Positions 2,954 to 54,383 of a stretch of 64,000 nucleotides of DNA are shown here, piece after piece. The notes beneath the pieces were generated by a model. It worked only from the letters and a program-made list of their open reading frames with translations, had not been told where the DNA came from and made no database searches. Positions within the stretch are counted from its first letter, which is position 1. Every line of letters begins with the position of its first letter. Source of the stretch: a virus (Duplodnaviria; Caudoviricetes); the IMG/VR virus record IMGVR_UViG_3300011335_000709, positions 5,506 through 69,505 of that record, one strand, 5' to 3'. Made by a program: the position numbers and the translations under genes.

Positions 2954-3094
2954 TCAATACTTACCCAATCCCCGACCTTTATTGGAAGGCTGGGGCATGA
3001 CGTAAGGCTTTTTCTTGTCAACCTTAAGGGATGGCGACTTGTTAGTCGGCATCTTTGCGTTCTTTTGATTCAAGTTAATTGATAAATTTTTCAT
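2954..3094 (-). CDS. small basic protein (46 aa, MKNLSINL...KGRGLGKY)
   Basis: Read manually; starts immediately after the upstream stop; Lys-rich; C-terminal GLGK. Confidence 0.6.
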   Translation of the reverse strand: MKNLSINLNQKNAKMPTNKSPSLKVDKKKPYVMPQPSNKGRGLGKY

Positions 3095-3325
3095 TTATTT
3101 TCTTCCTCTGTTGATCGATATTGCTTCGATCCTCAGATTTGAGCTCCCGTTATTATGCGGGTTTCCATCTTTGTGGTCAACATCTTTCCCGCGGAGTGCG
3201 GACTTGCCATGCTTGCGGGCCATCATACGGCGGGCGGCATTTCGCTTGGCCCTATTCTTCTTTTGGTCGGGCTTGCTGTGGTACTCGCGGTACTCCGCTG
3301 CGTAATCGCGCTTCCCGAGTGGCAT
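3095..3325 (-). CDS. small HNH-motif protein with N-terminal MPLGK
   Basis: KDVDHKDGNPHNNGSSNL is an HNH-type motif; basic N-terminal helix. Confidence 0.7.
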   Translation of the reverse strand: MPLGKRDYAAEYREYHSKPDQKKNRAKRNAARRMMARKHGKSALRGKDVDHKDGNPHNNGSSNLRIEAISINRGRK

Positions 3326-3329
3326 TGGA

Positions 3330-3713
3330 TTATTTGCCTAAACCAATTTTTTCTAAAGTATCTTTAACCTTTAAGCCTCTCGCTTGGGCTCTTTGGTCAT
3401 ATTCGTCCATTCTACGCTTTCTCTCTAAATCCATACGTTTTTGAATTAAAGCCTGTTTTTCAGATTCCAGTTCTTCTACAACTTCTGGAGCCACACTTAA
3501 GCCTGACTCTTTTTTCATGGAAGGATTCTCGCTGTATTTAGCATTTTGATAATCCCGCCGTGCGCCACTTACGAGCTGACTATCTTTTGAGGAAGGGGGC
3601 ACGTTTTCTTTTGTGTAAACGTTCTTTAATTCCTCTTTTAATTGTTCCCCGAGAACGGCGGGAGGTGTTGCGCCTATGTATCTCAAAGTCGCCAGCAAAT
3701 CTTTGTAGTCCAT
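3330..3713 (-). CDS. hypothetical charged protein (127 aa) ending in GLGK
   Basis: On the ORF track; tightly packed in the operon. Confidence 0.7.
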   Translation of the reverse strand: MDYKDLLATLRYIGATPPAVLGEQLKEELKNVYTKENVPPSSKDSQLVSGARRDYQNAKYSENPSMKKESGLSVAPEVVEELESEKQALIQKRMDLERKRRMDEYDQRAQARGLKVKDTLEKIGLGK

Positions 3714-3714
3714 A

Positions 3715-3870
3715 TTATTTACCTTTTGATTTACCGGCTGCGCTTAACGAAATGGCAATAATTTGAGCCTTAGAACGGGGCTTTCCACCGGCTCCACGCT
3801 CTTTTCCTTTTTTCTTATTATCAGCGTAAAGTTCGCTGATATTGGCAGATACATTTTTTCCTAGAGGCAT
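3715..3870 (-). CDS. small basic protein (51 aa, MPLGKNVSANISELY...GKSKGK)
   Basis: Read manually; own promoter upstream; stop 1 nt before the next ATG. Confidence 0.7.
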   Translation of the reverse strand: MPLGKNVSANISELYADNKKKGKERGAGGKPRSKAQIIAISLSAAGKSKGK

Positions 3871-3878
3871 GGGACTAT

Positions 3879-3905
3879 ATTATAGGGTGTAGGGTTGGGG
3901 GTCAA
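3879..3905 (-). promoter_or_regulatory. promoter TTGACC-N15-TATAAT, 8 nt upstream of ATG at 3870
   Basis: Perfect -10 and near-perfect -35; short spacer. Confidence 0.55.
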
Positions 3906-4102
3906 GAGCCCTTTTCAAGTTCATCCTCAACTCCATCTGAATCCTTATCCTTGAAGCTCGACGGGTCGCGGGAGAATATCTTATTGGCTAATAAGTACTT
4001 CTCTTCGGCAGACATCTCTGTCCAGGATTCAGTCCTACCCCTTGGTCTCCAAAGAATTAGGGCCACCACAATCCCGACAAAAAATATGATGGGCCAAAAC
4101 AT
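3902..4102 (-). CDS. small membrane protein (66 aa, MFWPIIFF...)
   Basis: Start reassigned to the ATG at 4102 (TAATG overlap); N-terminal hydrophobic helix. Confidence 0.55.
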   Translation of the reverse strand: MFWPIIFFVGIVVALILWRPRGRTESWTEMSAEEKYLLANKIFSRDPSSFKDKDSDGVEDELEKGS

Positions 4103-4335
4103 TAGGATTTCCCAAGTCCCGTTTTCTTTTTCCAGCTTATTGGCTTTGAGCTTGTCTTTTTCTTGGCCGACGAGTTGCACATTGACTTGGTGGGCCTACA
4201 GGCCGGATAGCTACCGCCTTCAGATGCACTCTTTCTCCCACACGGACCCCCAGTCTTGCAGTTAATCCACCCCTTGCCTTTATTGCGAGAGAACCAACCG
4301 TGCAAGCCCTTTTTCTTTTCGAGCTCAAAGCCCAT
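4102..4335 (-). CDS. small basic Cys-containing protein (77 aa) ending in GLGKS
   Basis: GLHGWF...GGPCGRK...YPACRP resembles small basic modules recalled from aquatic phages. Confidence 0.7.
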   Translation of the reverse strand: MGFELEKKKGLHGWFSRNKGKGWINCKTGGPCGRKSASEGGSYPACRPTKSMCNSSAKKKTSSKPISWKKKTGLGKS

Positions 4336-4487
4336 TATTTTTTCCCCTTGTTACCCCAGTTAGCTGCTCCTACCTTTCGACATTTGACGAGCGCACCGCT
4401 GGCATAAGCCGAAGGCCAGACGGCGTAGCGAGATTTCACCTTACGTGTGCAGGCGTCTCCCGCTTTCTTTTTACCTATTCCGCCCAT
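4335..4487 (-). CDS. small basic protein (50 aa, MGGIGKKKAGDACTRKVKSRYAVWPSAYASGALVKCRKVGAANWGNK)
   Basis: Read manually; WPSAYASGALVKCRK module recalled from cyanophage/pelagiphage proteins; TAATG overlap. Confidence 0.75.
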   Translation of the reverse strand: MGGIGKKKAGDACTRKVKSRYAVWPSAYASGALVKCRKVGAANWGNKGKK

Positions 4488-4771
4488 ACAGACTTTCCAG
4501 CGGCCATCCGTTGTTTCGCAAAGTCGGCCGCTTTCTTTATCATTTCTGGGGTAGCTTGTTCATTACGTTTTAATTTTTCAATTTCTAAAAGATTAAGAGT
4601 CGGGACGATCAACGGGATTAAAGTTTCTTTTCCGTCAAAATTAACTCCTATGGACTTTTCTGTCATAACACTACCATCTGTTGTTTTGATTGGACCCATC
4701 CATCCGCGACCTTTTGCTGTGCCATCTTCTCGCAATCCATAGTTATTGGTGGGTTGTTTACCGAGAGGCAT
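4475..4771 (-). CDS. small protein (98 aa, MPLGKQPTNNYGLREDGTAKGRGWMG...)
   Basis: Start reassigned to the ATG at 4771, directly after the upstream stop; YGxRxDGTxKG motif seen in podovirus late proteins. Confidence 0.7.
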   Translation of the reverse strand: MPLGKQPTNNYGLREDGTAKGRGWMGPIKTTDGSVMTEKSIGVNFDGKETLIPLIVPTLNLLEIEKLKRNEQATPEMIKKAADFAKQRMAAGKSVWAE

Positions 4772-4772
4772 C

Positions 4773-5066
4773 TTAGTATTTTCCCTTCCGATTAGATGGA
4801 CTAGACTGAGTAGATCCTCCTGGGCCAGCCCATAAATTTTTACAAGCCCAGTACTTGGCACTTAATTTAGTTCCAGGGTTATCGCAGTTATGGCGGGCCC
4901 GGAAGGATTTGCGTGCGGCGGCCGAGTAGTTATGGCCGTATCCTTTGGCCCCAAAATGTACAAGCCTTTCTTTCCCGCCCTCACAAGCTTTAACCATCCG
5001 TTTCTTCCCCGGACGTGTGCTTGGCCGAGGCTTGTTGCAAGGCATGCTAGATTTTCCGAGTGGCAT
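4773..5066 (-). CDS. small basic protein (97 aa, MPLGK...RKSFRARHNCD...YWACK)
   Basis: RKSFRARHxCD/YWxC module common in aquatic phages. Confidence 0.75.
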   Translation of the reverse strand: MPLGKSSMPCNKPRPSTRPGKKRMVKACEGGKERLVHFGAKGYGHNYSAAARKSFRARHNCDNPGTKLSAKYWACKNLWAGPGGSTQSSPSNRKGKY

Positions 5067-5078
5067 TTCTTTAATCTA

Positions 5079-8000
5079 TCAGGGGATCATTACCTTCTCA
5101 AGCCCCTCCTTGCGAAGGACGTATTGAAGAGCTGCCCGCTTGATAGCGTTGACTTTTGTCTTGGAAAGAATGTAGTCAAATTCCGCATTATCTTGGGCCT
5201 GCTCGAAGGCTGGGATGAATTTCTCAAGCTCTGCCTGGATTGCGGGGCCGGCGGTCTTGACCCAATCATACTTTTCGTCAAAGGTCAGGTCACGGCTAAG
5301 AGCAAGAATCTCATAAGGAGACTTGTCGATCGGCATACCGCGAGCGGCTTGAATCAGCAGTTCTTGTTGGGCAATTGCTTTCAGGTCTCCAGCGTTCCAA
5401 GTGATCACCCTTCCGTGCTTGGCGAAGATTGTGATGAGCTTATCGTGGACAGCCTGGCTGGTCGGATCATCCGATGTGTCGTAAGCATCCGTGCTTACCC
5501 CGGTGGATACGAAACGTCGAACGATAGGCATGTTGTTGACGATCTGGCTGGATACTTGTCCGCCGAGATGGTCGAGATCCGGTTCGCCAAACTTGGCCAC
5601 AATAGGGAAGGACGAGGCAAGGCTTGAGAGAAAGCCGTCTTTTCGCATACGACTTCTCGGCGTTCCAGTAAGACCATCGAACAATGATTCTACGTCTCTA
5701 AAAGTGGGGTAGTATGGGATGACAAATCCGGCCGCGATACCACTGAGAGTCGATCCAAATTCTTTAAGGAGACTATCTGCGCCAGCTCCGGGGGCCGGCG
5801 AGATCAGGCGCATAATCCCTCGCATACCCTGCAAGGCGGTTAGGTCTACAAACCCGATGGTCGTAGCTAGACTCGCCGTTGCCAGCGAGAGACCGATGGC
5901 ATCCACCGACGATTTGTCACCATAACGAACGGCTTCTGAAAAAGTAGCCGTCGGCAACAAGACTCCGGTGAGTCCCGGAGGAAGAGCTTCCCATCCGATA
6001 TAGATTGGGCCGTCCCAAAGCTTGACTCCGAACGGGGCGAAAGGCTCACCGATCTTACCAATCTGGATAGAGCGTGTCTTGCCCCCGGCCTGGAACCAAG
6101 CCTTACGAGCTTGAGGGTCTTTCGGACCTTTGTAATGTACAAAGAACCAAGGATTCTCTTCATCATCATGGAGTGCTTGAGCAACCAAAGAACCAAGGAT
6201 TCCGGTCAAATACCACCCAGTAAGCATCTTACCTTTTAGGAGATCGTATTCGTAAGTATTCGGCAAAGGTGGTGGGCGGTAGTAACGTGGGGCGGATTGT
6301 GCTAACAGACGACCAACTCCGTAATGCATCCGCAGATTCGAGGTGATCGGAATATAATTCAGGGCTTCATTTACGAGATTTGAGGATGTACGAAGGAACT
6401 TGAACACTGCCTTTGGCGCCCAGTTTGTATTTGCAAAAGCATCAATTGATCCCGCAACAAGTCCAATCACGCCGTAAAAGTCATCTTGATAGGTTGCACG
6501 TAAAGACCTTGTCTTAGCGGCTTGTTCAATCTGTTTAGTAATCTCATTAACTGGCCTATTCTGGTCGAGGATTTCATCGATTCTTAGAAGCCTCTGTTCT
6601 GGGGTCAATCCAAAAGTGGCCGTATCAATATCGGCCAAGCGAGTCGCACGTTCGATGGAGTCCTTGGTACGGTTGAGGATATTATTGATCTCTGCGTCAA
6701 ACTCTGCCTCGGGCATCAAGGGATTACGTTTCGCCAGGATGTAGCCAGCCTCGATAACTTCGGCCATTTTCTTAACGCCGAACTTATTGAACGCGTCACC
6801 CGTTGCCATCAAGCGGGAAGAAAGAATGTACGGTCCAAGGAAGGAGTTGTAAGGCCAGGCGGGGATATCGCCGATTTTACCAAGTTTTCCGAAATACTTT
6901 CCAATGAAAGGAATTTCTTTCAGGAGAAGTGGCTGGGCGATATACTGAGTCGGGACAATCTTAGCCAAGGCTTTTCCAGTTGCAGTCGTCGGTTCCCATC
7001 CAGCCTGAAGGTTGATTTTAATCTCATTCTCGTTTGTGGTGACGAACTCTCCGACTGGTTTAGCAATGAAGCTGGGGATAAGGCCGGAGAGGAAGTCTGT
7101 AATGGGTTGGGCGAAAGCTGGAACTTTTGGCTTGGTGACAATTAGGGTTGCGGGATTGACGCCACGTTTGCCAGCCCGTCCAGCCTCGGCTTCACGGAGC
7201 ATAGCTTCGAACACATTGACTCCACCCATTTCTTTGAGAACAACGGAGTCAGTTGGGAACTTTCCGTACTTCCAAATTTCCATTGCGTACTTTCTGGCCA
7301 TGCCCTTGTTTTCGATATCCTTGCCCCACCAAGAATCCCTCAAAGCTTGACGCCCCAGCTTAATGGCGCGAGCTTGAAGTTTCTGTTCCGGCCCCCCAAA
7401 TCTCGACTTCAAGCTGGCATTGATACCGGAGATCCATCCGTCAAGTAGAACTCCTTCAGTAGATGAAATTGCATTTACGGCCAACGTGCCAAGACCTTGT
7501 AGATAATTTGCGGTCTGGTAGGAAACGGCTAGTTCACCAAAAGAGATCGGGGCAATGAGCTTGATGTACTCGTAGATTTCCTCGACCTTCTCGTTGAGCA
7601 AGTGACCCTTGGGATACTTGGATAGATCATTGACCATCTGTTCGATCTTGGCTCGCTCTTCCGGTCCGATTTCAGGAAGCCCAAGCTTTTCGTGAATCTG
7701 CGAATAGATTTCCTGGTCGCGGAGGATTCCAAGGTTTACGGCTTCGACAAGCTTGTCGATAGCCGAGCGGATCTTCTTGGTCTTCTTCTCTCCCTTTTGG
7801 GCTAGACGAACTCTGAGTTTCTCCAAAGCATCCCGGCGCTTTTCGGCGATCATATCCGCCAATCCTTCGCTTAAGTACTTGCTGACTTCCGCTTGATTTG
7901 CTGGAGAAAGATCGGTGCCTTCGAGTAAGGAAGTTTTCAGGGATTGTTCGAAAGCTGCAACGTCACCTTTGCTTTCGCGGATAAGCCGATGAATGCTCTT

Positions 8001-11000
8001 GTTCGGGCCGCCGATAGTTTCGAGGGTACGGATAACTCGGGCGATGTTGGAGATTGTGAAAGGACGGCCGAGGGCTTCTTCAATCAACGGCTCTAATCCT
8101 TCGAGCTCTTCTGGTGTGTAATCATTAGACAGGGTTGCGCGAACGTCATTGGTATCTTTGACAAACTGAGGATATTCAGCCAAAAGATCTTTGAGGCTCT
8201 GTGCGGCTGAAGGTCTCACCGGAGCTTGCGTTCCTTCGGGCGGCTGCAAACCACCCTTTTCCTGTGTTCTTTGAATCAGCAAACGCCTGAGTCTGTTTGC
8301 GTATTCCTTAAGGGCATCCTTCTGCTTGGGGTTCCTTACTCGTTCGGCAAACTTGACGAGAGCCTTCGCAGTGGCGTCAGCCAACGCAACTTCAGCTTTC
8401 TCTTCGCCGTCGACTTCAACGGGCGATTCGGAATCAAGTTCTTTCTCAAGCTTCTTAGCGCGACGCTTGGCCTCCCCGCGAGTCTTGGGTGGGGTTGCTA
8501 CCGGAGGAGTTGCTCCTCTGGGGCGTGTGACCTTGCGGGGCTGTAATCCGGACCACTCTGCTTCCAGCTCTGCTTGCTTTTGGTCGGCAGTCAAACGAAG
8601 CTCTTCAAGCTTGGCTTTCTGTTCATCGCGGAAGGCGGTTGCGGCAACTACGTAAGCGGCATCATAATGATGATTGAATACACGAAGCACTTCCTCACGA
8701 TTCTTGGCTTGAGAAAAGAATGGGCTGAGAAGAACAATGGTGCGGAGCTTTTCTTTCTGTACAATTTCGGGCGATTTATCAAACCCAACTCGGATAACCT
8801 TGAGGAGCATTTGGCTGAGTTTGTTAGCCATTTCCGGATCAAGACCGAGGCTGTCGCCTTCTCCTTCAGCGGACGTGGGGAGCGAAGCAATATTAGTTAT
8901 ATCTCCGAAAATGTCGTTTAGATCGTTGGCCGATTCTGCGTTGATATACTCTGCGATTTGTGAATCCAAATCAGCGATACGAAGTTTCTCGGCAACAGTC
9001 TGTTTGCGAATAGCCTCGATCTGGCTGAGAACATCTTGAGTTTCTGGCGTAGAAGCGAAAGCATTTGCGGCTACTTCGTCGGCTTCAGAGAGGGCATCAA
9101 ATGTATCCTGGATGTCCTCTTTATACGGAGTAATCCTTGCCTTCGTGGCTTCTTCTAGCTGACCTTGCAACATCTTACCAAATACTTGAGGGCTTTCCGC
9201 CGCGATATCTGGGCCCATCTTCCACAAAGCAACAGCTCGTCCGGGATCGGTTCCGTAAGTTACGGAGAGTTTCTGAACGACTTCGTTGAGCGTCTCTTGA
9301 GCGTAGACATTTCCATCTGCTGCGATTCGGGTGTAGTGAGGAACGAGTAAGAATCCAACGGCGGCTCGGCCAGGAAGATCAAGCGGAATTTTATCCGACA
9401 AGAAGTTTCTTGTGGCGGCAAGAACACCAACACCCTTCGGCCCGTAAATATAAGCTTCACCAACTGCCCTCTGCTCGTCATTAGAAACTTGCCTATAGGT
9501 GAAGCTTTCCAACAACTTATCACGGATAGCCTGGCTTGGGATAAAGTTTACGATCGAGGCGAGGAGATTTACTCCTCCAGCCCTTACCCGATATTTCTCT
9601 TCCTCTTCCGTAGCGCCGGCTTCTGGATACCCGGCGAAGTCGGGAACTCTTGTAGCGAACTTGTTGAAAGTAGGATCTTCGTCTCCAAGCACATTAATAA
9701 GTCTGCGGGCATCTATTTCAGAACCCTTCTTGTAAGTAACTCCTTTGTAAGAAATGCTTCGGTTTGCGATCGTCCTGAAAACAACCATTGAGGTAGCATG
9801 TTTGGGGGATGCTCCGGTCGTATTGGCGGGGGTCAACGTGCCAATGGCAACGGTGTAAGCACCGCGAAGTTGTGGCGGAGTTTTGGGATCAGGCTGGGTT
9901 GGATCGGCGTCTTCGGGAAGAGGTTCCCCAATCGGAACAATCGCGGTTGACGGAACTGCATCATCTCCACTGGTCGATGCAAATCCTTCGGCCAACTCCA
10001 TGACCTTTGCTTTCAGCTCATCGAGATAAATGATAACGTCATTCTCGCCCTGGGCTTCGGCTCCACCCTCTGTGAGCAGGGTGATTTCAAAAGGAGTTAG
10101 TGTCTTGCTGATCTCAGCGATCTTAACGGCAGCATATAATTCCCCAGCACCAATGAACGTCCCGTACATATCTGATTGTACCGGGCGACCGAGGAATTGA
10201 GTGTCTTTGCCGTCGAGAACATTATCTAGCTTGCGAACAATCTTAAGATCATTGTAGTCAAAAATATTGCTGGGCCGGTTGAAGTTCGGAGCTTCTCCAC
10301 CTTCAGGGAAGGACGAGTATTTGGAGTTAGTTTGATATTTTGCAATCTGATCAATCAATGCCTGCTTATTCTCTAGCTCGCCCTTCTTTGTTTCAGAAGG
10401 ATTAACGCGAACCCCTGCTTCCCCAAGCATTCTGTCTACGGTGCGGAAATCCATGGCGCCGATCTCTTCCGAAAGCTCCATGTGGGACATCTTGAGGAAA
10501 GGGCCAAAGCTCTTGGGGATCTGTATTTTCTTAATCTTTTTAGGGGCTTCAATCTTCTTGCTCTCCTGGAGACGCTTGTCATCGATCATTTTGCGAAGTT
10601 CTTTTTGTCTCTTAAGAAGAACTTTGCGATCCGGGCTTTCTTCTGCAAGCGCGCCCTCGTCCATGTCAGCAAGCAATTCCACGTTACGTTCAAACTCTGC
10701 TTCCATATCACCAGAAGGAGATTCTTGTGTTGTGGTCGGCTTCGAAGATTTGATCTGAGTTGCGATGAGTTCGTCAACCTTAATCTGGTTAAATCTCCGT
10801 ATAACTTCTTCAGCATCTTTTATGTAGGAGGCGGGAAGCATTGCGCTCTTCGGCCACATGCTGAAAGCTGACTCAGCTTGATCCATCCAGGCTGCAATTT
10901 TATTCTTTGGGGTTATACCCAAAGTCCTAAGAATCTTGCTAAGTTTCTTATCTAAGATTTTGCGTTGTGCCGGGCTAATGTTCAAAGCCTGTTCAGTGAT

Positions 11001-14000
11001 CGTTCCTCGATATTGGAGCTGTAGCAGCATCCTAGTGAGTTCAGCGCCGAGTAGAACGGGATTGGACTTGAAGGCGGCCATGGCCAGCCTCTTTTCTTTT
11101 GTAGATAGATTGTTAAAAATAGTATAAATATCTGTCACGTCTCCCTCTAAATCCATCGAGATGACGGCATTGCCTACATAATCGTAAAATAAATTTGGAT
11201 CCCCAACGGCAAGACGAGTGATTGTTGTGTGCTCTCGCTCATGGGCAATAATTTCTTTTAAACCCTCTTCGTACTCCTTCGGGCTGAATTTCTTTTTATA
11301 GTTTTGGAGGATCCACGATGGATCTAGAATGATCTCATCGTATACGCTGGTCGCCCCAATGTTGTGGGCTGGGGCTCGGTTTGTGAAAGCATACTTGATG
11401 AAGTATTCTAATTTATCTCCTTTGTTTGTCTTAAAGGTGAATACTCCCTTGTCGTAAGCTTTTCCAAAAACACGTTTAAAATCTTTGTCTACCTCGTCGA
11501 GTACGGCTTTCTGCTCGGGGGTAATGTTGCTTGGTATATAGACGTCTTCTGGAGCGTCGGACTTTGCTTTGGCCTTCGGATCAATTACTGGCTCAAGAGC
11601 AACCGTTTTAATCGGGAACAATGGTTCTGCTGGGCGAGCCTGAGCCTTTCTGATCTTCTCAGTCTTTTGCTTGGCAGTCTGTGGAACTTTACGTGTCGGC
11701 TTGACGGCGGGAGCTTTGGCCTGCGCCACCACCTCTTCAACGGCTTTAACAGCTCCGAAGTCAACAAACGCCTCCTGCGTCTTTAAACTGGAGAGCAAGC
11801 TGTTCTCGGCATAACGATCGGCTCCGTGATTGGTCAAGAGGAACAGAACATCTAATTCGCTGGCCGTATTCAAACGATACCCACGCATTACAGTTTGCAA
11901 GAAGTCGCTAGCCTTTAGAGGCAGAGACAAGAAAATAAAAGTACGAGGTTTGTTACCAATCTTGTCATCCAATTCGCCACCGGTTCCAGCGCTTTCACGA
12001 GTTGCAATAACAACATCGGCCGCACCATTTTGGAAGTTTGAAGCAGCAGCAGCTTTTGCATCAATATCGTCACCAAAAATCTTTGCAATCTTGATTCCTG
12101 GTTTGTCGGCAAGAAGTGCCGCTTCGATCATAGAGGCTGTTGCCTCTGCGTAAGATCCGGTAAACGCTTTGGTCTTCTTTACGTAGTCAACCCAGATAAC
12201 AGGCTTGCGCCCTTTCTTAATTTCTTTAAGAGCGGCTTTGGCGGCATCTGCCACTTTAAATCTTTCAAGAACAAACTTTTGCGATCCGAGAAGAGCTTCC
12301 CCCTTGTCTGCATCGTCGATAGTTGTATTCCCATAAGTCCCGGAGACAACCTTTAATTCTTCTCTCAACTCGTCCGTCATCTTGATCGGGGTTGCTCGGA
12401 AGTTTACATGCTTGAGCAAGAAGGCATCGGAGGCGTAGCTACCGCGTTGCGCCCATGTATTGATAACTGCCCCAAGACGACGTTTCGCTTCAATTTCGTC
12501 AACGCCAATCTGGTCATCAATAGTCTTTAGCGTGTCCCATTTCTTTTTGTTATAGGCATCAACTTGTTTTTTCTTTAGATCTGCAATTTGCTCATCGCTA
12601 AAAGTAGCCTGGGTCTTCGAAGCAATGGGTCTATATTCCTCGGCCCTTCCACCACGAACTTTCTTGAGTTCATAACCATTACGCGCAAGAAACTCGTCCA
12701 GGTTAACTTCTTCCTTACCTTCAAACAATTCACGGGCGTAGGCTCCAAGTTGCAAGACGGAATCGAGAGGAGTTCCAGTGAGCTTGACGACTCGTCCAGT
12801 CTTGATACGAGAGTTAATACGATCAGCAATTGGTCCCCATGTGGCCCCCTCTTCAAGATTCCTTACACGCTGGAATTCGTCCCAGATAATAGTCGTGTTC
12901 TCATCGGCAAGCTTTTCAATCTCTTTAAGATTCTTTGTATCGTATGTGGTGACAATGACGTTGTTGAAGTTCGCATCAATAAACGGACGATAAACTCCGC
13001 CACGAAGTTCGAGCGGGATTCCCATTTTGCCAGCATCGGCCGACAATACGTGTCGTATCTGATCTGTGATCTTAGGCGATCTAGTACTCCAGTTTGGGCG
13101 TATAACATCAGACGGAGCTACCCAGATAACTTTATTTTTTGGGGTCTTTGGTGTTGGTAGATAAAGTTTACCAATAGCCAACCCGATTCGGGTCTTTCCT
13201 CTTCCCGGTCCGACAGCCAATACTTTGGACTGCTCTGGCGTATTTTCTAAAGCCCACTGAGTGTGGACGACGTGATCTTTCTGATCATCTGTCAACAACT
13301 TTTTTTCCGTAATCTCATTCCCTAGTCTTTGCAGAACCTTTTGCGCCCGCTTCGAACCATAATCAAAACCGGCCTGTTGGGCGGTTATGTACTTCTCTTT
13401 GACTAGCTCTCGTATTGGCTTGCCAGGAATCGGTTCATCTGTTCCTTGCGCGAGCTCTCTGCCATTAGGTTTAACTTTTCCTGTAAGCTTGGTAGGGTCG
13501 CTCTCGCTTGGCTTGAGGTCTTCTCCTCGGGTAATTCTCCCAACACGTTTGCTTGTGGCTTTGTCAAGAGCAAGCTTCGCAAGTTGGCGTTTGCCAGCCT
13601 CGGTTCGAAGTTCTGCGACGGGGATTGACTTTCTTCGTTCTGATTTTCCAATGTTTGCACGGTTTACTACTCCTCTTATTTGTTGATCCAGGGAGAGGAG
13701 ATTGGCCCGGTACTTATAAGCACCGTCAATTATAGCCTGTGTGTCCTTACCCTGAAGCGCGTTTATGTAATCTGCTTTTGCTTCATCTATTTTCTTTATA
13801 TAAAAATCAAAAGATTCCTTGTCCATGACAGGATCTTTTTTACCGGCCGGTGTAATGGCACTGTTAAGATTGAGAAGAAGCTGATCGAGCAAAATCTGGA
13901 GAGGATCGCCGTACTTCTCATCCCCCGACAAACCAAGCTTAATTGCTTCGAGGCGATCTAGAACTGCGGAGAGCGTGTCAAGATCGGCTTTGTTGCGGGT

Positions 14001-17000
14001 ATTCTGAAGCTTGTCGATCATCCCGCCAACTTTGGAATACTCTTCCGGTAGGAATAGCCCAGCCTGATTCATCTTCGAGAACTTGGCGAATACGGGTTTA
14101 ATCTCAGCGGGCGTTAAAACAGATTTGGATTCTTTGGCGACTTCTTCGGCTGCCGGAACTTGTTCCGCTTGAGCGTACTGAGCGTTAATGATATCAAGCT
14201 TGTCCTGAACCATTTCACCGAAAGCCGACATCATCCTAGTCAATTCGGATTTAAACTTCTGTGGTGTAAGTTTCAATGACTTTGCATCCTGTCCGAGCAT
14301 TCCATTAGCCGGACCCTCCGGATTAGTCTTGATATACTCAAACAAATCTTTCTCGGCCTTTGTCTTTAAAGTCTTTTCAAAGTCGGCCATGGCTGACGTG
14401 ACGGCCTGCAATCCAATGTTCTGAGTAACTTCGGGAACATCTTCTTGCAGCTTCTGCACTTCAGCGATCTTCTCGGAGGGCGTGAGATCGGATTCGATAA
14501 CTCCGGCTACAGCCTGAACCGGATTACCCGGCAAATCTAACGATGTCTCAGCAACAGACCCGGCTTTATATCGAGCCCGGGACATTGCCTTCTTACGAAG
14601 ATCCTTTAAGTGCGAGAAGAAAATATCATCTAGATCAACCTCGGGTCCGCTTCTGCCTTCACGCAGGAACAGCAGGAACTTATCTTCCGAGGCTGCAATT
14701 GCCTTCTCAAATCCGTCGGACTTCTCTACAATCTCCCACGCCTTGTTTCCCCGAGAGTTTCTGGCGAGTTGGTTAAACCTAGTCTGGGCTGCTTTGAGCG
14801 CACCCATAACCGGAACATTGTTTTCATCAATCGCACCGATACCCTTCAAGAAATCAAGTTCCGTGGAACTCAGTTCACCTCCAATACCAAAAACAAGCGG
14901 CAAAGCATTCGGATCTTCTTCAAGGAACTTGTTCTGCTTGTCTTGGACAGACTTCCAACGTTTGTTTACAGCGCTTCCCTCAATAGCAATGGGGAGATTA
15001 AAGAACTCTTCCTTCTCGAGAGTCTTGGGGAGAACTTTGCGGGCCTGTCTTTTCGGCAAGCCCTCATCAGAAATCTCAGTCTCAACCTCAGAATCAATTT
15101 CACTAAGTTTTCTTTGAGCTCCTTTTTTGGCGATTTCATCTTGGAGCGCAATAAGGTTGGCTTGTTTAACCTTCGCCGCAGCCAAAGCCATTTCTGCTTC
15201 GGGAAGTTGAACTGTAGGAACTTCGAGTACCTTACGTTCTCCTTCAGCAATTTCTTTGTTAACTCGTTTTTCAGAAGCTTGAGCCGCGGCCATGGCGGCT
15301 GGACTAAACAATTTTTCTTGCTCAAGATTTTTCTGTGTGCGTTCTGTATCTTGAGTTACGCCAATCTTCGCCTGGATTTCTTTCAATCCCTTTTTAGTTA
15401 AACCTTTGTTCCCGTAAATTTGATCTCGGATTTGTTCTTTGGCTTCTAGTGAGAAATCGCTGTCCTCAAGATCAGCTTCCAATGCTTCGCGTTGAGAGTC
15501 GAGAGGATCATATTTTGCAAATTCACCGAAACCTTGACCCATGTCATCGCGCACACCGGTCAGAACATAAACACTTTTGTTCTTCGATTCTCTACCAGAG
15601 ATGCGTCCGGCCTCCTCCAAATAATCCAACGCCTTTTTGTTTTCTGGGTTTAGGGGAATATTTACCTCTTCGAGTCCTTGAGCCTTTCCAAGTTCGAGGC
15701 CGGGAATCAATGCTCCCTGAACAAAATCTTCTACCTGAGTTCTAAACTCTGGGGTTTCAACTTCTGCGACAACGGCTGGTTGAGTTCCGGTAATCTCGCC
15801 GAGCGGCTCGGATGGAAGGATGGGTGCGGTTGCTTGCTTGCTTCTTTCGACTTGAGCCTTAAGACCGGCTGCTAACGCAGGACCGGCCGCTTTGTCAACT
15901 TCCTCTTGGGCAACCTTTGCCGTTTGGGGAAGCATGGTCTTATCAGTCGAGGCTTCAATGTTTACGGCATCGAAAAGGGCTTTGGCTTCTTCGGTATCCA
16001 GGCTATTGCGGAACACTCGGAGTTGATTGTCCCGCTGACGGAAAGTATATCGGCTGTCATTCCTAGTGTTTTTAATGCTTTCGCGAAACATTTCTGCAAG
16101 ATCTTTCTTGCCGGACTCCATCACCTCATCTATTTGCGCTTGGGAGGCACGACGACCTCCGATGGCTGACACACCCAACATGCCGAGCGAAACGCCCAAG
16201 GACGAGGCCACATCTTCACCAAATCCTTCCTGCGGATTCTGCCCGGCCATGATACGATCGATCTGATTGGAAATCGTTTCACCGATGGTAGAGCCGGCTA
16301 CGAAAGCCGCGTTCTTGTAAACTGGTGCGAGTTTGGGTACAGATCCAGAAAGAGCCGTCGCCGCTAGCTTCGATCCCATAGCTTTCGTAACAAAGGTTGC
16401 TTCTACCATTTCACCAGCGCCCTCAGAAAGACCAAGGCCGGCGATCTTCTCAAACGAGTTTAAAAGGTTTTGCTCCCAGCTCAGAGGTCTTACTTCTTCT
16501 GCCGCTTCGCCACCACCGTAAATCGAATAAGTCCCAATGCGTGACAGACGATTGGGGACCATGAACATCTTGCCACCAACATTCATTGGGGTTCCGAGTA
16601 CTCTTGTCGTTCCCGCTCCGATTCCGGCAAATCCCGCTACGCTTCCCGCTAAAGTTCCGGTCAAGGAGGGGAGGTAGTAATCCTCCATGACTGTGTTGTT
16701 AATCTGTTGGATCAACGCGCTTCGGCGCCCGACTTGATCGGGATCTTTATCGTCTTCTATAAAGATATTCTCGGTCGTTACTAATGGGAGAGCGTCTACA
16801 CCTTTAGCAAAGAATACGCGCAAGGAAGACTCGGTTACTGGTTTGTCCTTATCGCTCTTTAACTGTTTTAAGTATTTTTCGGCTTCAGCCAAATTCATCC
16901 CAGTGTTGTACTGGGTAACATAGCCCTCACGTCCTTCTGACTTCACAATCATCTCTGGCTTTTGTCCAACCGGCGCAATGGACTCCCCGGCGTCTAGCTT

Positions 17001-34117: not shown

Positions 34118-35521
34118 TTAGCTAACATAGTCAAGGCTGATGGTAGGACGTGTGTGCATTACGACGTAGCCGTACTGCGGGAACACGGGCCGAGCACCAC
34201 TCGCACAAACTCCGCGAAAATATCCGACATTACCGTCCGGATTATTTTGGCGATCCAAGATGTTAACCCATTTGAACTCACCACGGTAGTTCTGAGGATT
34301 GAATGCCATCTTGTTGTTAGTGCTGATGGGAGACGGAACCACAGAGCGGAATACATCTTGATGGAAGATGTAGCTGATCTCGTAGGACGCGGTCTCGTAG
34401 GCAGGGTTGATGTTGTACGCCGTACCCTTGGTCGTGGTTTCCTTACGGAAAGGATACACACGGAACAAGTAGGCAGGGCTCGTACCAGCCACGGCAAAGC
34501 GCGGAGGATACGGATCGATGGAGTGGTAGAAACCACCGTAAGAACGCTCAATACCGAGAGGCGTGAGCAATTCATTCGGCTTGGCATACCGGTAATCCTG
34601 GCGAATGTCGGCATTCAACCGGATCAGGTTTTCGCTGGTTTCGGCACCGCAGATCAACATGAACACCGGAGCGCCGTTTTCACGGCCCATGGCGTTAGTT
34701 CCCGCGCCGTCGCGGATAAGTTTCATGTAGAGCCGCTTGAGGATGCCCTGGGTCAACTGACTCTGAGGGAGCGCAGTGGATGTGAGGGTACCGCCACCTA
34801 CTGCCGACACTGAGCCATTCACAACAGCGTTATAAACGGCTTTAGCGTCACCAGTGGTTGTAGTGCTAGCGGTTGGGTTATTGATGGCACCAACGCCGGG
34901 ATAAACGAGGTTATTTCCCTCGATGACCACCGAGCGGGTGTATAGATTCCGGTAGCGATCTTGCCAAACCAAGGAGGTCGACTCAGTGAGGACATCCATG
35001 ATGTTGGAGAGCTGCTCTTTACGTTTAACGGCAAAGCGCAAATCTTCCAAGGAGATATCGGGGGAATCAACCGAGGCCCATTCCAGCGAATACTGACGGA
35101 GCTTTTGTCCGAAAGTAACGCCAGTAAGAGCTACGGGCAACGCATTACCAGAGGAAGAAGCCGAATCAACCGGATCTCCAAATGATGCGAGAGTGCTGGT
35201 AACCTGGGTATAAGGATTGAAGCCCTGATAGTCCTGGGTAACCTGATTTGAACCGAGTGTTCGCCATCCCTGTCCTGCATCTTGTCTGATATCGTTTACT
35301 GAATAGCCAATTGCGGTATCACCAGCAGTGGCCAAAGCACGGGAGGGGTAGAAACGTTCGAAAGTGACCGAGCTGATCACATCGCCCATTTCCTCGGGGA
35401 ACTGTTCCTGCTTGGTCAGTTTGAGCCAAGCAGAGGTATCGATCGTCCGGCGATAAATCTCCGGTCCGATACGACCCGCTTCTTTAACCAGCAACTGCTG
35501 GATATTGTAAGTCGTAGACAT
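34118..35521 (-). CDS. major capsid protein (467 aa)
   Basis: Follows portal and scaffold; strongly biased codon usage; size typical of HK97-fold podovirus coats. Confidence 0.8.
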   Translation of the reverse strand: MSTTYNIQQLLVKEAGRIGPEIYRRTIDTSAWLKLTKQEQFPEEMGDVISSVTFERFYPSRALATAGDTAIGYSVNDIRQDAGQGWRTLGSNQVTQDYQGFNPYTQVTSTLASFGDPVDSASSSGNALPVALTGVTFGQKLRQYSLEWASVDSPDISLEDLRFAVKRKEQLSNIMDVLTESTSLVWQDRYRNLYTRSVVIEGNNLVYPGVGAINNPTASTTTTGDAKAVYNAVVNGSVSAVGGGTLTSTALPQSQLTQGILKRLYMKLIRDGAGTNAMGRENGAPVFMLICGAETSENLIRLNADIRQDYRYAKPNELLTPLGIERSYGGFYHSIDPYPPRFAVAGTSPAYLFRVYPFRKETTTKGTAYNINPAYETASYEISYIFHQDVFRSVVPSPISTNNKMAFNPQNYRGEFKWVNILDRQNNPDGNVGYFRGVCASGARPVFPQYGYVVMHTRPTISLDYVS

Positions 35522-53453: not shown

Positions 53454-54383
53454 CTATTTGCCCATTCGACGATTAAACTCTGCCTGTGAAATCAAGCCAC
53501 GCTCGTACTGATAAACAGGGTCATCAGGATCCGACGGACCAGCAGAGGGAGGATTGAGGAACTCGTACTTGGGCGCTTCTGCCAAACCACTAGCTAAACC
53601 GGCACCCAACCCCTTCGCCACATTTCCTATTTTTTGGGGTATCCCCGATTTAATTGCTTTTGCAGTTAATTTTGCCGGTTGCTCAAGCATCCCTATTCCT
53701 TTATATAAAGTCTTTTCAACGGGGTTAAGTGTGTCTCCGACGTAATCCTTGGCCTCCATTGCCATACTCAACAGAGCTTTAGGTGTACTTTTATTCTGGA
53801 CAGCCCTCGCCTGAATTTCGCTTGCTATATTTCCTATAGCCGATTTTACCCCAGGTTCGCCCTTACTTTCCAGCCAAGTTAATCTTTCCCAGTTTGAACT
53901 TATGGGTTCTTTTAGTTGTTTACCAACCCGCTGAAAATCATGCGCTTTTTCGTGTCGCAATACACTAGCCTTGTCTTGAGGAGAAAGAGCCTCAGCTATT
54001 TTTATATTTCTTGTTTCCGGGTAATAAGACCCTGAAAAAACGGATTTTGAATCTCTAGATCGTAGTTCTGGTGTTGGAACTTGTTCCACTCCACCCGACT
54101 CCAATTGTGATTTTACAACTTGTCGAAGTTTAGAGTATTTTCCAAGTCCCTTATTTTTATTGTTGGCTAACTCCTCGATAGACTGATTTGCTTTCTCTTT
54201 AGCTTCATTTTGCATCTTGCGGTTAACTCCACCAAGAAATTGCTTGAGAACCGTTGTTGCAGCCTGGTCCTTATCCTGCCCCATAGCCTCCCAAAACTCA
54301 GGAGTATATCTGGCTTTTTCAAAAAATTCCGAAAAAGATGTATTAGAACTGTCAAATAGTGCCGGTGAAGTTGGTTCAGCCAT
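53454..54383 (-). CDS. HExxH (zincin-like) protein, 309 aa, antisense to the replication module
   Basis: GSYYPETRNIKI...LRHEKAH; contains NKNKGLGKY; ends in RRMGK. Confidence 0.65.
   Translation of the reverse strand: MAEPTSPALFDSSNTSFSEFFEKARYTPEFWEAMGQDKDQAATTVLKQFLGGVNRKMQNEAKEKANQSIEELANNKNKGLGKYSKLRQVVKSQLESGGVEQVPTPELRSRDSKSVFSGSYYPETRNIKIAEALSPQDKASVLRHEKAHDFQRVGKQLKEPISSNWERLTWLESKGEPGVKSAIGNIASEIQARAVQNKSTPKALLSMAMEAKDYVGDTLNPVEKTLYKGIGMLEQPAKLTAKAIKSGIPQKIGNVAKGLGAGLASGLAEAPKYEFLNPPSAGPSDPDDPVYQYERGLISQAEFNRRMGK

What the first reader, a model, noticed from the sequence alone, without database searches (positions are those of the whole stretch)
2954..5066. Cluster of small basic late proteins sharing a terminal (P/G)LGK tag: candidate capsid-targeting system
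Seen: of nine consecutive small genes at the end of the late region, four begin with exactly MPLGK (5066, 4771, 3870, 3325) and three end in GLGK/GLGKS/GLGKY (3330, 4102, 2954). One begins MGGIGKK (4487); only the membrane protein at 3902-4102 lacks the motif. The tagged bodies are otherwise unrelated (HNH, WPSAY module, RARHNC module, GPCGR module, DGTAKG module). The MPLGK codons differ synonymously (atg cca ctc ggg aag / atg cct cta gga aaa / atg cct ctc ggt aaa / atg cca ctc gga aaa), which points to selection on the peptide rather than recent DNA duplication. The separate 309-aa HExxH protein also carries NKNKGLGKY and ends in RMGK. Established: T4 internal proteins IPI-III are loaded into proheads by a shared short N-terminal capsid-targeting sequence. 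Inference: LGK is a portable N- or C-terminal tag that loads a cargo of basic DNA-binding or effector mini-proteins into a podovirus head, or a shared protease/docking site. I know of no description of such a tag.
Basis: partly seen in the sequence, partly recalled or inferred. Interest (0 to 1): 0.85.

Follow-up and report, generated by a model that had tools for sequence, protein, structure and literature searches.

The report
Shared LGK end-tags on phage mini-proteins
In an abundant clade of ~70-kb marine phages, a variable set of unrelated small basic proteins all begin with MPLGK or end in GLGK. This peptide resembles the tail of the phage's own scaffolding protein, so it is probably an address label that loads cargo into the head, but this is not proven.

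Summary
Four genes start MPLGK, one starts MGGIGK, and three end in GLGK(S/Y). In the whole 69.5-kb genome, terminal [LIVM]GK occurs only on these eight genes, the 309-aa HExxH protein and one probably spurious ORF.

The DNA pattern for MPLGK starts hits 28 times in nine genomes of the clade; a tenth, more distant genome has none. Of these, 27 lie in this late cluster and one is an accessory zincin. A reversed-pattern control gives 0 hits.

Synonymous codons vary, including CTN/TTR switches for Leu, so selection acts on the peptide. Homologues of two of the bodies (g1, g8) outside the clade lack the tag, so unrelated families acquired it within this clade.

Three further results:
- A wider family of accessory proteins carries MPLGK starts plus TGLGK(Y) and a conserved C-terminal module.
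- The bodies occur as domains of larger proteins elsewhere, for example fused in cyanomyovirus gp114. Fusion junctions there never read LGK.
- The clade's scaffolding protein ends in ALERG[LM]K, ALERGMGKK or ALEKS[MI]GR, which resembles the tags.

Best reading (about 0.45): a scaffold-hook-like docking tag for head incorporation of ejected cargo, analogous to the T4 capsid-targeting sequence (CTS), encapsulin targeting peptides and the 80alpha/CpmB hook. A protease site, a post-injection motif and RNA-level signals remain possible. No experiment supports any of these readings.

The parts
4773..5066 (-). g1, 97 aa. N-terminal MPLGK tag on a DUF5754-like 'RARHNC' body. The C-terminal end is ..NRKGKY.
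   Evidence: phrog_220 positions 522-606; DUF5754 weak. 2145 representative homologues; none of the 150 best inspected has LGK before the module. AF2 pLDDT 74, with lower confidence over residues 1-10 and 80-97.
4475..4771 (-). g2, 98 aa. N-terminal MPLGK tag on the 'DGTAKG' body. Found in no relative examined, and flanked by a 6-bp GGTAAA direct repeat inside the tag codons.
   Evidence: Absent from the relatives; in most of them MPLGKKKA.DAC follows g1 directly.
4335..4487 (-). g3, 50 aa. Starts MGGIGKK in the window and MPLGKKK in the seven relatives that have it. The body is the WPSAY module.
   Evidence: (phrog_727, 2e-18). The same module lies inside the 591-aa cyanomyovirus gp114.
4102..4335 (-). 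g4, 77 aa. 'GPCGR' body with the C-terminal tag ..KKKTGLGKS*.
   Evidence: The relatives that have it end ..KKKTGLGK* or ..KKKGGLGKNA*.
3902..4102 (-). g5, 66 aa. Single-pass membrane protein. The only untagged member of the cluster.
3715..3870 (-). g6, 51 aa. N-terminal MPLGK tag on a DUF6496-like basic body. It is preceded by TTGACC-N17-TATAAT, which ends 8 nt before the ATG.
   Evidence: The tag is invariant and the promoter-like sequence is conserved in most relatives.
3330..3713 (-). g7, 127 aa. Helical, charged protein ending ..DTLEKIGLGK*. This tail varies in relatives (GLAK, GLNK, GLDKQ, GLIP).
   Evidence: The tail resembles the scaffold tail DALERGMGKK. BLASTP against the scaffold is not significant.
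3095..3325 (-). g8, 76 aa. N-terminal MPLGK tag on a small HNH-like body.
   Evidence: HNH_3, 5e-6; phrog_4590, 3e-20. Present with the tag in G005. Homologues outside the clade start MSKSGRVY, MARDYRKEY or MADHVGKRDY.
2954..3094 (-). g9, 46 aa. C-terminal tag ..NKGRGLGKY*.
   Evidence: The tail is conserved in seven of the eight relatives, whichever gene follows it.
53454..54383 (-). 309-aa HExxH (DUF6782-like) accessory protein with an internal NKNKGLGKY, a conserved C-terminal module and the end ..RRMGK*.
   Evidence: Absent from 5 complete relatives. The family alignment shows MPLGK starts, TGLGK(Y/A) and the shared C-terminal module.
35791..36996 (-). Putative scaffolding protein, 401 aa, ending ..GFLDALERGLK*. 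This is the candidate model for the tags.
   Evidence: Gene order is portal-like, 97 aa, this gene, MCP. Acidic, helical sequence. ESM-atlas lead to Phage-scaffold at 0.90.
34118..35521 (-). Major capsid protein, 467 aa. The presumed binding partner.
   Evidence: ESM-atlas features score 0.96-0.97 to the Phage_capsid_3 and N4-gp56 MCP clusters. No Pfam, PHROG or PDB sequence hit.
5079..17612 (-). 4177-aa giant late protein directly upstream of the cluster. It is of the polyvalent or ejection type and carries no [PG]LGK.
Evidence: No Pfam hit. The concept comes from PMC5512222.
1584..2936 (-). 450-aa virion structural protein (phrog_1645) that closes the cluster.
   Evidence: 1.6e-135. Homologues in cyanomyoviruses and in HMO-2011 are annotated as virion structural protein.

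Best explanation
The LGK motif takes three forms: N-terminal (M)P-L-G-K, C-terminal [T/R]-G-L-G-K-(Y/S), and looser M-G-K/I-G-K forms. I read it as a short, portable docking peptide that recruits a variable set of small basic proteins and accessory enzymes into the assembling procapsid, from which they would be ejected with the DNA.

The proposed mechanism is imitation of the C-terminal 'hook' of the phage's own scaffolding protein (..ALE-R-G-[L/M]-K, ..RGMGKK, ..KS[M/I]GR). The tag would occupy the same site on the inner face of the capsid protein or on the scaffold core.

**Shown here.**
- The motif is real and terminal.
- It is confined almost entirely to this late cluster.
- It is conserved at the peptide level across a deep clade.
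- It was acquired by unrelated protein families inside the clade only.
- The gene set that carries it is cassette-like and variable.
- The bodies occur as domains of larger proteins in other phages, some annotated as virion proteins.

**Inferred.**
- These proteins are present in the virion.
- The capsid or scaffold is the binding partner.
- The N-terminal and C-terminal forms use the same site.
For: **Specificity.**
- Terminal [LIVM]GK occurs only on the cluster genes, the HExxH protein and one probably spurious ORF among 264 ORFs.
- In G005 the other hits are the scaffold and two unrelated ORFs, one of them a trivial M-G-K start.
- MPLGK-start DNA pattern: 4 hits in the window genome, 15 in five complete relatives and 9 in three further relatives. 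All lie in the cluster except one accessory zincin. Reversed control: 0.

**Selection on the peptide.**
- The Pro wobble position is close to free (10/9/7/1).
- Leu uses CTA, CTC, CTT, TTA and TTG and never changes to another residue.
- After a rearrangement, g3 kept an IGK start.

**Clade-specific acquisition.**
- DUF5754-like homologues outside the clade start MADKS.MKCN or MAIDKSKMKCN.
- HNH-like homologues outside the clade start MSKSGRVY, MARDYRKEY or MADHVGKRDY.

**Link to virions.**
- The cluster sits between the giant late protein and a phrog_1645 virion structural protein.
- g1 matches phrog_220, 'minor head protein and DNA pilot'.
- GPCGR-like, WPSAY and RARHNC-like modules are fused in the 591-aa gp114 of cyanomyovirus S-RIM8, next to the homologous structural gene.

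**Portability.**
- Accessory proteins elsewhere in clade genomes carry the tags. One is a 300-aa zincin, MPLGKTSP...RKTGLGSYS*.
- Of the 32 family members that share only the C-terminal module, 16 start MPLGK or a close variant. All but five of the 41 family proteins have [TKGNA]GLGK[YA].

**Scaffold resemblance.**
- Scaffold tails are ALERGMK in 84 of 120 representatives and ALERGLK in 22. G005 has RGMGKK and the distant type has KS[MI]GR.
- G[LM]G?K in the last 6 residues hits only cluster proteins and the scaffold among 1154 ORFs of four genomes.
- No prohead protease is recognisable between the portal and MCP genes.

**Precedents.**
- T4 CTS on diverse internal proteins (PMC3012670).
- Encapsulin targeting peptides, mostly C-terminal but N-terminal on ferredoxins (PMC8346489).
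- The 80alpha scaffold and SaPI1 CpmB share a helix-and-hook RIIK motif that binds the capsid protein (PMC5644958).
Against: - There are no virion proteomics data, no binding data and no structural data.
- The scaffold resemblance covers only 4-5 residues and is not exact. The common tail is R-G-[LM]-K, whereas the tags read G-L-G-K. The pattern was chosen after seeing the data, and BLASTP of g7 against the scaffold is not significant.
- A 4-residue core that works at either end of a chain would be unusually small for a targeting signal.
- The N-terminal form lacks the R-G context of the scaffold hook.
- Some proteins carry two or three copies (MPLGK start, TGLGKY, RRMGK end). That fits cleavage sites at least as well as a single address label.
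- The g7 tail is poorly conserved (GLAK, GLNK, GLIP).
- The tag codons are biased towards CTA GGA AAA beyond genome usage, so some RNA-level constraint cannot be excluded.
- The scaffold and MCP assignments rest on gene order and language-model look-alikes only.
Confidence: 0.45

Rival explanations
1. LGK is a processing site. A phage protease (the zincin of the giant protein, an accessory HExxH protein, or a host enzyme) would cut after the Lys. This would remove a short N-terminal leader (MPLGK, MPGLGK, MPVLGK, MPALNSNTGLGK) and separate bodies from C-terminal extensions or anchor modules. It could operate together with packaging, as in T4, where the CTS ends in the gp21 site.
For: - Leaders of variable length all end in LGK: MPGLGK, MPVLGK and MPALNSNTGLGK.
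- Internal sites exist. L090 has ..KKTGLGKYATIS.. followed by about 30 further aa, whereas its L089 counterpart, with a similar tail, ends at ..TGLGRYATIK*.
- TGLGK(Y/A) sits about 10 aa before a conserved C-terminal module in most of the family.
- The HExxH protein has GLGKY at the break between predicted helices.
- Tagged accessory proteins are themselves zincins.
- Iyer et al. propose that zincin (MPTase) domains process polyvalent virion proteins (PMC5512222).
- In 80alpha, shared N-terminal leaders are protease sites. This point is from my own knowledge and I did not check it.
Against: - Cutting 0-2 residues off a C-terminus (GLGK*, GLGKS*, GLGKY*) achieves nothing by itself.
- The giant protein, MCP, scaffold and portal-like proteins carry no [PG]LGK.
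- The HExxH accessory protein is absent from 5 complete relatives that keep the tags.
- No prohead protease was recognised.
Confidence: 0.2
2. The tag acts after injection or in the cytoplasm, not in assembly. It would be a short linear motif that takes all these proteins to one host target (DNA, ribosome, a protease, a membrane site), or that controls their stability as a degron or an anti-degron.
For: - The bodies are very basic (14.5% Lys, 10% Gly) and resemble nucleic-acid-binding mini-proteins.
- The tags are terminal. AF2 confidence for residues 1-10 of g1 is lower than for the core (pLDDT 61 against about 85).
- Accessory proteins encoded outside the late cluster also carry the tag.
Against: - It does not explain the near-exclusive location of tagged genes at the end of the structural operon.
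- It does not explain the resemblance to the scaffold tail.
- I know of no bacterial system that recognises xLGK at either terminus.
Confidence: 0.15
3. The conservation is at nucleic-acid level or is historical. ATGCCNCTAGGAAAA would be a translation-initiation or operator element, or a junction sequence that spreads by recombination when cassettes are swapped, with the peptide as a by-product.
For: - Codons are biased to CTA (59% against 10% in the genome), GGA (78% against 38%) and AAA (89% against 50%).
- g2 is flanked by a GGTAAA direct repeat inside the tag codons, so tags do serve as recombination junctions.
- g6 has a promoter ending 8 nt before its ATG, so its mRNA is near-leaderless.
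- Several C-terminal G-K codons overlap Shine-Dalgarno-like sequences of the next gene.
Against: - The Pro wobble position is close to free. Leu switches between CTN and TTR without ever changing the amino acid.
- The window's own four copies use GGA, GGT, GGA and GGG, and both AAA and AAG.
- The C-terminal and internal GLGK copies cannot be start-site signals.
- The g9 tail lies about 26 nt from the next start and is conserved whichever gene follows it.
- MCP, scaffold and other presumably highly expressed genes lack it.
Confidence: 0.1
4. The motif is a relic of inter-domain linkers from an ancestral polyprotein that was split into separate genes.
For: - The same modules are fused in larger proteins elsewhere.
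Against: - In the 150 best representatives the junction before the DUF5754-like module, where it could be located, typically reads xVDKxSM[PK]CN and never LGK.
- S-RIM8 gp114 has no [PG]LGK between its modules.
- Homologues outside the clade lack the motif.
Confidence: 0.03

Closest known systems
Phage T4 capsid targeting sequence (CTS) of internal proteins IPI-III, Alt and others
   Same: A short conserved terminal peptide is shared by otherwise unrelated, diverse proteins. These are encoded in a variable locus, packed in the head and injected. The tag is the only conserved part (PMC3012670).
   Different: - The T4 CTS is about 10 residues, N-terminal only, binds the scaffolding core and is removed by the gp21 protease.
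- Here the core is 3-4 residues and occurs at either end or internally.
- There is no sequence similarity to the T4 CTS.
- No gp21-like protease is recognisable.
Encapsulin family-1 targeting / cargo-loading peptides
   Same: Short terminal peptides bind the inner face of an HK97-fold shell. They are mostly C-terminal but N-terminal on some cargo. They are Gly/Leu/Lys-rich, with consensus SDGSLGIGSLKRS (PMC8346489).
   Different: - That is a cellular nanocompartment, not a virion.
- The consensus is longer and not the same.
- The binding pocket uses an N-terminal helix specific to encapsulins.
- No homology is shown.
Scaffolding-protein C-terminal helix-and-hook, copied by SaPI1 CpmB (RIIK motif) in phage 80alpha
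   Same: A second protein carries the scaffold's few-residue C-terminal hook and so binds the same site on the capsid protein (PMC5644958). Here the tags resemble the scaffold tail ALERG[LM]K / RGMGKK.
   Different: - CpmB is a size-redirecting scaffold of a pirate element, not cargo.
- The hook sequence differs.
- That case is proven by cryo-EM and genetics. The resemblance here is short and unproven, and it does not cover the N-terminal form.
Polyvalent proteins of phages and conjugative elements (Iyer, Burroughs, Anand, de Souza, Aravind 2017)
   Same: An arsenal of small effector-like domains is delivered with the DNA. It is associated with zincin (MPTase) and helicase domains and with late structural genes (PMC5512222). 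The bodies here occur as domains of large proteins elsewhere.
   Different: Here the domains are separate genes, each with its own terminal tag, rather than being linked in one polypeptide.

Membership tests
T4-type capsid targeting sequence system | A conserved short N-terminal leader shared by unrelated head-internal proteins | tested here: met
   MPLGK sits on at least five unrelated bodies and is conserved in nine genomes.
T4-type capsid targeting sequence system | The leader ends in a site for a prohead protease (gp21, LxE/IxE) and is removed | tested here: not met
   No LxE or IxE follows the tag. No prohead protease was found by PHROGs, Pfam or PDB sequence search in the portal-to-MCP region. 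Cleavage after Lys remains untested.
T4-type capsid targeting sequence system | Demonstrated encapsidation, and sufficiency of the tag for foreign proteins | not testable with these tools
   This needs virion proteomics or a tagged reporter.
Encapsulin family-1 targeting peptide | Match to the consensus SDGSLGIGSLKRS / TVGSL | tested here: not met
   The tags are PLGK / TGLGKY. Only a loose G-L-G..K resemblance exists.
Encapsulin family-1 targeting peptide | A short peptide at either terminus of cargo encoded near an HK97-fold shell gene | tested here: inconclusive
   The tags are terminal. The MCP is probably of the HK97/N4-gp56 type by language-model features only. The cargo genes lie about 29 kb from the MCP gene.
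Scaffold helix-and-hook mimicry (80alpha SP / CpmB type) | The C-terminal hook of the second protein matches the hook of the phage's own scaffolding protein | tested here: inconclusive
   Scaffold tails are ..ALERG[LM]K..RGMGKK and ..KS[MI]GR. Tags are ..GRGLGKY..KTGLGK and ..EKIGLGK. The pattern is specific within four genomes but was defined post hoc, and the match is not exact.
Scaffold helix-and-hook mimicry (80alpha SP / CpmB type) | An amphipathic helix precedes the hook | tested here: inconclusive
   The HExxH protein has a predicted C-terminal helix at 300-308, pLDDT about 83. g7 was not modelled. g4 and g9 tails follow Lys/Gly-rich, probably disordered sequence.
Scaffold helix-and-hook mimicry (80alpha SP / CpmB type) | Binding to the capsid protein N-arm or inner surface | not testable with these tools
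   No complex prediction or experiment was available.
Polyvalent-protein domain repertoire (solo forms) | The same domains occur inside large multidomain phage proteins | tested here: met
   g1's module lies inside proteins of up to 1393 aa. g3's module lies inside 324-928-residue PHROG family profiles and the 591-aa gp114.

The most novel reading that the evidence does not exclude
An abundant clade of marine phages would use a minimal, orientation-independent 'hook' (phi-G-K) copied from the scaffolding protein's C-terminus as a universal cargo-loading tag. Any protein that gains it would be packed into the head and injected. These might include mini DNA-binding proteins, an HNH-like protein or zincins encoded elsewhere in the genome. 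The tag codons would double as microhomology for swapping cargo cassettes. This would be a viral counterpart of encapsulin cargo loading and the smallest known encapsidation signal.
Probability: 0.3. Interest if true: 0.85.

Novelty: new variant of a known kind. Interest (0 to 1): 0.68.

Why it matters
- **Assembly biology.** If the tag is a loading signal, it would show how podovirus-type phages without a prohead protease choose which proteins travel with the DNA. This is poorly understood outside T4, P1, N4 and T7.
- **Evolution.** It would link viral scaffolding hooks to encapsulin targeting peptides through a natural example.
- **Gene discovery.** It would flag a hypervariable arsenal of probably injected effectors in a widespread marine phage group. 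More than 180 scaffold cluster representatives were found.
- **Engineering.** A 4-5-residue portable tag would be useful for packing proteins into capsids.
- **If it is a cleavage site instead.** It would define the specificity of an unknown phage-associated protease.

Tried and rejected
- **No close relative in GenBank phages.** Megablast of 25 kb gave no match.
- **Single-sequence locus search.** The search with the giant protein's C-terminus failed. An alignment-based search worked.
- **Linker-relic idea.** Rejected, because fused homologues have no LGK at module junctions.
- **The 309-aa HExxH protein as the clade's tag protease.** Rejected, because it is absent from five complete relatives.
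- **A Shine-Dalgarno overlap as the explanation.** It accounts for several ..KGK/..GRK C-termini. It does not explain g9, the internal copies or the N-terminal tags.
- **A downstream start codon using GGAAAA as its RBS.** Possible only for g1 (Met8). It does not apply to the other families.
- **The terminase GGLGKAQ.** Set aside as unrelated to the tags: it is internal, and I take it to be a probable Walker-A-like site without having tested that.
- **Other phage groups sharing the 450-aa structural protein** (L003-type, HMO-2011, cyanomyoviruses). They have no such cluster or tag.
- **Structure of g1.** Moderate model with no PDB fold match.
- **Structure of the HExxH protein.** Low confidence and not searched further.
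- **BLASTP of g7 against the scaffold.** Not significant.
- **Sequence searches of the structural proteins.** PDB searches of the MCP, scaffold and portal-like proteins, and Pfam/PHROG scans of the structural genes, were uninformative.
The contexts of the P0016-P0047 proteins were therefore inferred only from matching contig lengths and from L102/L103.

Full report
**1. What is there**

On the minus strand between 5066 and 2954 lie nine tightly packed small genes.

| Gene | Coordinates | Size | Terminus |
|---|---|---|---|
| g1 | 5066-4773 | 97 aa | starts MPLGKSSMPCN |
| g2 | 4771-4475 | 98 aa | starts MPLGKQPT |
| g3 | 4487-4335 | 50 aa | starts MGGIGKK |
| g4 | 4335-4102 | 77 aa | ends KKKTGLGKS* |
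| g5 | 4102-3902 | 66 aa | transmembrane helix, no motif |
| g6 | 3870-3715 | 51 aa | starts MPLGKNVS |
| g7 | 3713-3330 | 127 aa | ends DTLEKIGLGK* |
| g8 | 3325-3095 | 76 aa | starts MPLGKRDY |
| g9 | 3094-2954 | 46 aa | ends NKGRGLGKY* |

The cluster follows a 4177-aa gene (17612-5079). It precedes a 450-aa gene that matches phrog_1645, 'virion structural protein', at 1.6e-135.

The bodies are unrelated to one another:
- g8 matches HNH_3 and phrog_4590.
- g3 matches phrog_727 and, weakly, DUF5872.
- g1 matches phrog_220 ('minor head protein and DNA pilot', profile positions 522-606) and, weakly, DUF5754.
- g6 matches DUF6496 weakly.
- g2, g4, g5, g7 and g9 have no family.

Together the proteins are 14.5% Lys and 10% Gly. 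The 309-aa HExxH protein (53454-54383) contains NKNKGLGKY and ends RRMGK*.

**2. More than chance**

- [PG]LGK occurs 14 times in all six frames of the window. Seven of these are the gene termini in this 2.1 kb.
- The record is a 69.5-kb virus contig, estimated 96% complete.
- Among its 264 ATG-ORFs of at least 40 aa, [LIVM]GK within the first 15 or last 8 residues is found only on the eight cluster genes, the HExxH protein and one probably spurious ORF.
- The DNA pattern ATGCCNYTNGGNAAR matches four times, all in the cluster. The reversed control matches zero times.

**3. Conservation**

- The neighbouring structural protein and an alignment of the giant protein's C-terminus retrieved eight related IMG/VR contigs of 43-82 kb, six of them at least 98% complete by CheckV.
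- The giant protein's C-terminus is only 32-41% identical to the window in these contigs.
- All keep MPLGK (MPGLGK on g1 in one genome) on the g1 and g6 orthologues, on g3 in the seven relatives that have it, and on g8 where it is present. The relatives that have g4 keep (T/G)GLGK on it, and seven of the eight keep GRGLGK(Y) on g9.
- Additional clade-variable cluster proteins also carry the motif:
  - MPVLGKF...TGLGRYATIK*
  - ...KKTGLGKYATIS...
  - MPALNSNTGLGKS...
  - ...RQTGLGKQ...
  - MPGLGK...
- The MPLGK-start pattern gives 15 hits in five complete relatives and 9 in three more. All lie in the cluster except one accessory gene. Controls give 0.
- Gene content varies like cassettes. g2 is found in no relative examined. 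g8 is in only two genomes. g7 varies in size or is replaced. Some relatives have a glucosaminidase or a T4-type lysozyme after the giant gene.

**4. Peptide or nucleic acid?**

Over 27 MPLGK copies the codon counts are as follows.

| Residue | Codons observed |
|---|---|
| Pro | CCA 10, CCT 9, CCC 7, CCG 1 |
| Leu | CTA 16, CTC 5, CTT 3, TTA 2, TTG 1 |
| Gly | GGA 21, GGT 4, GGG 2 |
| Lys | AAA 24, AAG 3 |

- Switching between CTN and TTR while always keeping Leu, together with the near-free Pro wobble position, argues for selection on the amino acids.
- The excess of CTA, GGA and AAA over genome usage (0.10, 0.38, 0.50) shows an extra A-rich bias. This bias is expected near start codons and is partly due to shared ancestry, so a minor RNA-level constraint cannot be excluded.
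- g2 is flanked by a GGTAAA repeat inside the tag codons: ATG CCT CTC|GGT AAA ... TA|GGT AAA AAG. Relatives read MPLGKKKA.DAC at this position. The tag codons have therefore served as a recombination junction, and the displaced g3 kept an IGK start.

**5. The tag is clade-specific**

- Homologues of g1 in Pelagibacter phage HTVC106P, roseophage SIO1 and a freshwater podovirus read MAIDKSKMKCN..LDKDKMKCN and MADKSNMKCN.
- An exhaustive profile-free search found 2145 representatives of the g1 module. Many lie inside proteins of 150-1393 aa. In the 150 best, the sequence before the module, where it could be located, typically reads xVDKxSM[PK]CN and never LGK, and none starts MPLGK.
- g8 homologues in T7-like roseo- and pelagiphages (where the gene sits between the scaffold and capsid genes) and in phiEco32 start MSKSGRVY, MARDYRKEY and MADHVGKRDY.
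- Unrelated families therefore gained the same N-terminus inside this clade.
- This rules out an intrinsic feature of the domains. It also rules out a relic of polyprotein linkers.

**6. The bodies elsewhere**

- The WPSAY module (g3) is found in 365 phage records, nearly all of them cyanophages.
- In S-RIM8 it lies inside a 591-aa protein (gp114). That protein also contains GPCGR-like and RARHNC-like segments and sits two genes upstream of the homologue of the 450-aa structural protein.
- The separate mini-proteins here therefore correspond to domains of larger proteins in other phages. Some of those are encoded among structural genes or annotated as virion proteins.
- This fits the 'polyvalent protein' concept of effector domains delivered with the DNA (PMC5512222).

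**7. A wider tagged family**

- Homologues of the HExxH protein fall into two groups.
- Nine full-length relatives all keep GLGKY.
- Thirty-two shorter or different proteins share only a ~50-aa C-terminal module: GLAEAPxYEFLNPPSAGPSDPxDPVYQFERGLISxxEFxRRMGK.
- All but five of the 41 proteins have [TKGNA]GLGK[YA]. In the second group it sits about 10 residues before the module.
- Sixteen of the 32 start MPLGK, MPIGK, MSLGK or MPLGR.
- Their middle regions differ, and some carry PF03118.
- Several lie on contigs whose lengths equal those of contigs bearing clade scaffold genes.
- In the relative G007, two such genes lie far from the late cluster. One is a 300-aa zincin reading MPLGKTSP...HEIGH...RKTGLGSYS*.
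- The window's HExxH gene is absent from five complete relatives. It is therefore an accessory cassette and not a conserved tag-processing enzyme.

**8. The scaffold link**

- The gene order is a 769-aa portal-like gene, a 97-aa gene, a 401-aa acidic helical protein, and a 467-aa protein.
- The 467-aa protein has language-model features of Phage_capsid_3 / N4-gp56 capsid proteins at 0.96-0.97.
- The 401-aa protein is nearest to a scaffolding cluster at 0.90, which is only a lead.
- No protease is recognisable in this region.
- The 401-aa protein ends ..GFLDALERGLK*.
- Among 120 clade representatives the tails are ALERGMK (84), ALERGLK (22) and close variants.
- G005 has ALERGMGKK*, and a distant branch has ALEKS[MI]GR*.
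- These tails resemble g9 (GRGLGKY*), g7 (DTLEKIGLGK*) and the accessory ends (RRMGK*).
- The pattern G[LM]G?K in the last six residues hits only cluster proteins and the scaffold among 1154 ORFs of four complete genomes.
- The pattern was chosen after seeing the data. The usual scaffold tail lacks the second Gly, and BLASTP of g7 against the scaffold finds nothing. I treat this link as suggestive only.

**9. Mechanism**

I consider a docking tag most likely (about 0.45). The phi-G-K hook would place the cargo on the site used by the scaffold tail on the capsid's inner surface, or on the scaffold itself. The proteins would then be trapped in the procapsid and leave with the DNA. There are three precedents:
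- the T4 CTS (PMC3012670);
- encapsulin targeting peptides, which can be C- or N-terminal (PMC8346489);
- the RIIK helix-and-hook shared by the 80alpha scaffold and SaPI1 CpmB (PMC5644958).

Three rivals remain:
- **Cleavage site after Lys (about 0.2).** It is favoured by variable-length leaders, internal copies and proteins with several copies. It is disfavoured by C-terminal copies that leave 0-2 residues and by the absence of sites in the major structural proteins.
- **Post-injection or stability motif (about 0.15).**
- **RNA-level or recombination signal (about 0.1).**

Shown here: the motif's reality, specificity, conservation, clade-specific acquisition and the modular context. Inferred: virion location, the binding partner and the equivalence of the two orientations.

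**10. Verdict**

- The principle is known, while this tag and its possible scaffold origin are not described. A full-text search for MPLGK found nothing relevant.
- I class it as a new variant of a known kind and score interest at about 0.68.

Noticed in passing
window 4475-4771 and 4480-4487 (minus strand): g2 is bracketed by a 6-bp direct repeat, GGTAAA, lying in the Gly-Lys codons of two tags. Relatives lack g2 and read MPLGKKKA.DAC there. This looks like cassette insertion by microhomology.
   Followed up: partly
L083:2205-3980 (Synechococcus phage S-RIM8 A.HR1 gp114): A 591-aa cyanomyovirus protein fuses GPCGR-like, WPSAY, CWKGY and RARHNC-like segments. It lies two genes upstream of the homologue of the window's 450-aa structural protein.
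   Followed up: partly
P0016-P0047; L102:654-1289; L103:9581-10213: A family of marine phage proteins shares only a C-terminal ~50-aa module (..EAPxYEFLNPPSAGPSDPxDPVYQFERGLIS..EF.RRMGK) behind variable bodies. Some bodies carry PF03118 (RNA polymerase alpha CTD) and some are zincins. Function unknown.
   Followed up: partly
L085:4829-5386; L001:2972-3556; L091:8542-9093: Some relatives encode a peptidoglycan hydrolase directly after the giant gene. It is either PF01832 Glucosaminidase or PF00959 Phage_lysozyme, a non-orthologous replacement at one position. The window has none there.
   Followed up: partly
P0053-P0064, P0072-P0074, P0081 and others: Many homologues of the g1 module across metagenomes end in [KR][GC]KY* (RKCKY, RKGKY, RQGKY). 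This conserved C-terminal end is older than the clade's LGK tags.
   Followed up: no
L094:1501-1731; L095:1504-1719: The small HNH-like protein family of g8 sits between the scaffold and major capsid genes in T7-like roseophages and pelagiphages. That is an odd, conserved position for a nuclease-like protein.
   Followed up: no
L102:3891-4847 (minus strand): The relative G007 encodes a 318-aa trypsin-like serine protease (GNSGGPL motif) with an N-terminal hydrophobic segment, near the tagged accessory genes. I did not look for one in the window genome.
   Followed up: no
window 3871-3910 (minus strand): TTGACC-N17-TATAAT ends 8 nt before the g6 ATG and is conserved in most relatives. g6-g9 may therefore have their own near-leaderless transcript.
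   Followed up: partly
window 3744-3854 (minus strand): A 36-aa ORF overlaps g6 in another frame and stays open in all relatives. Its sequence is not conserved beyond what the g6 frame imposes, so it is probably not a gene.
   Followed up: partly
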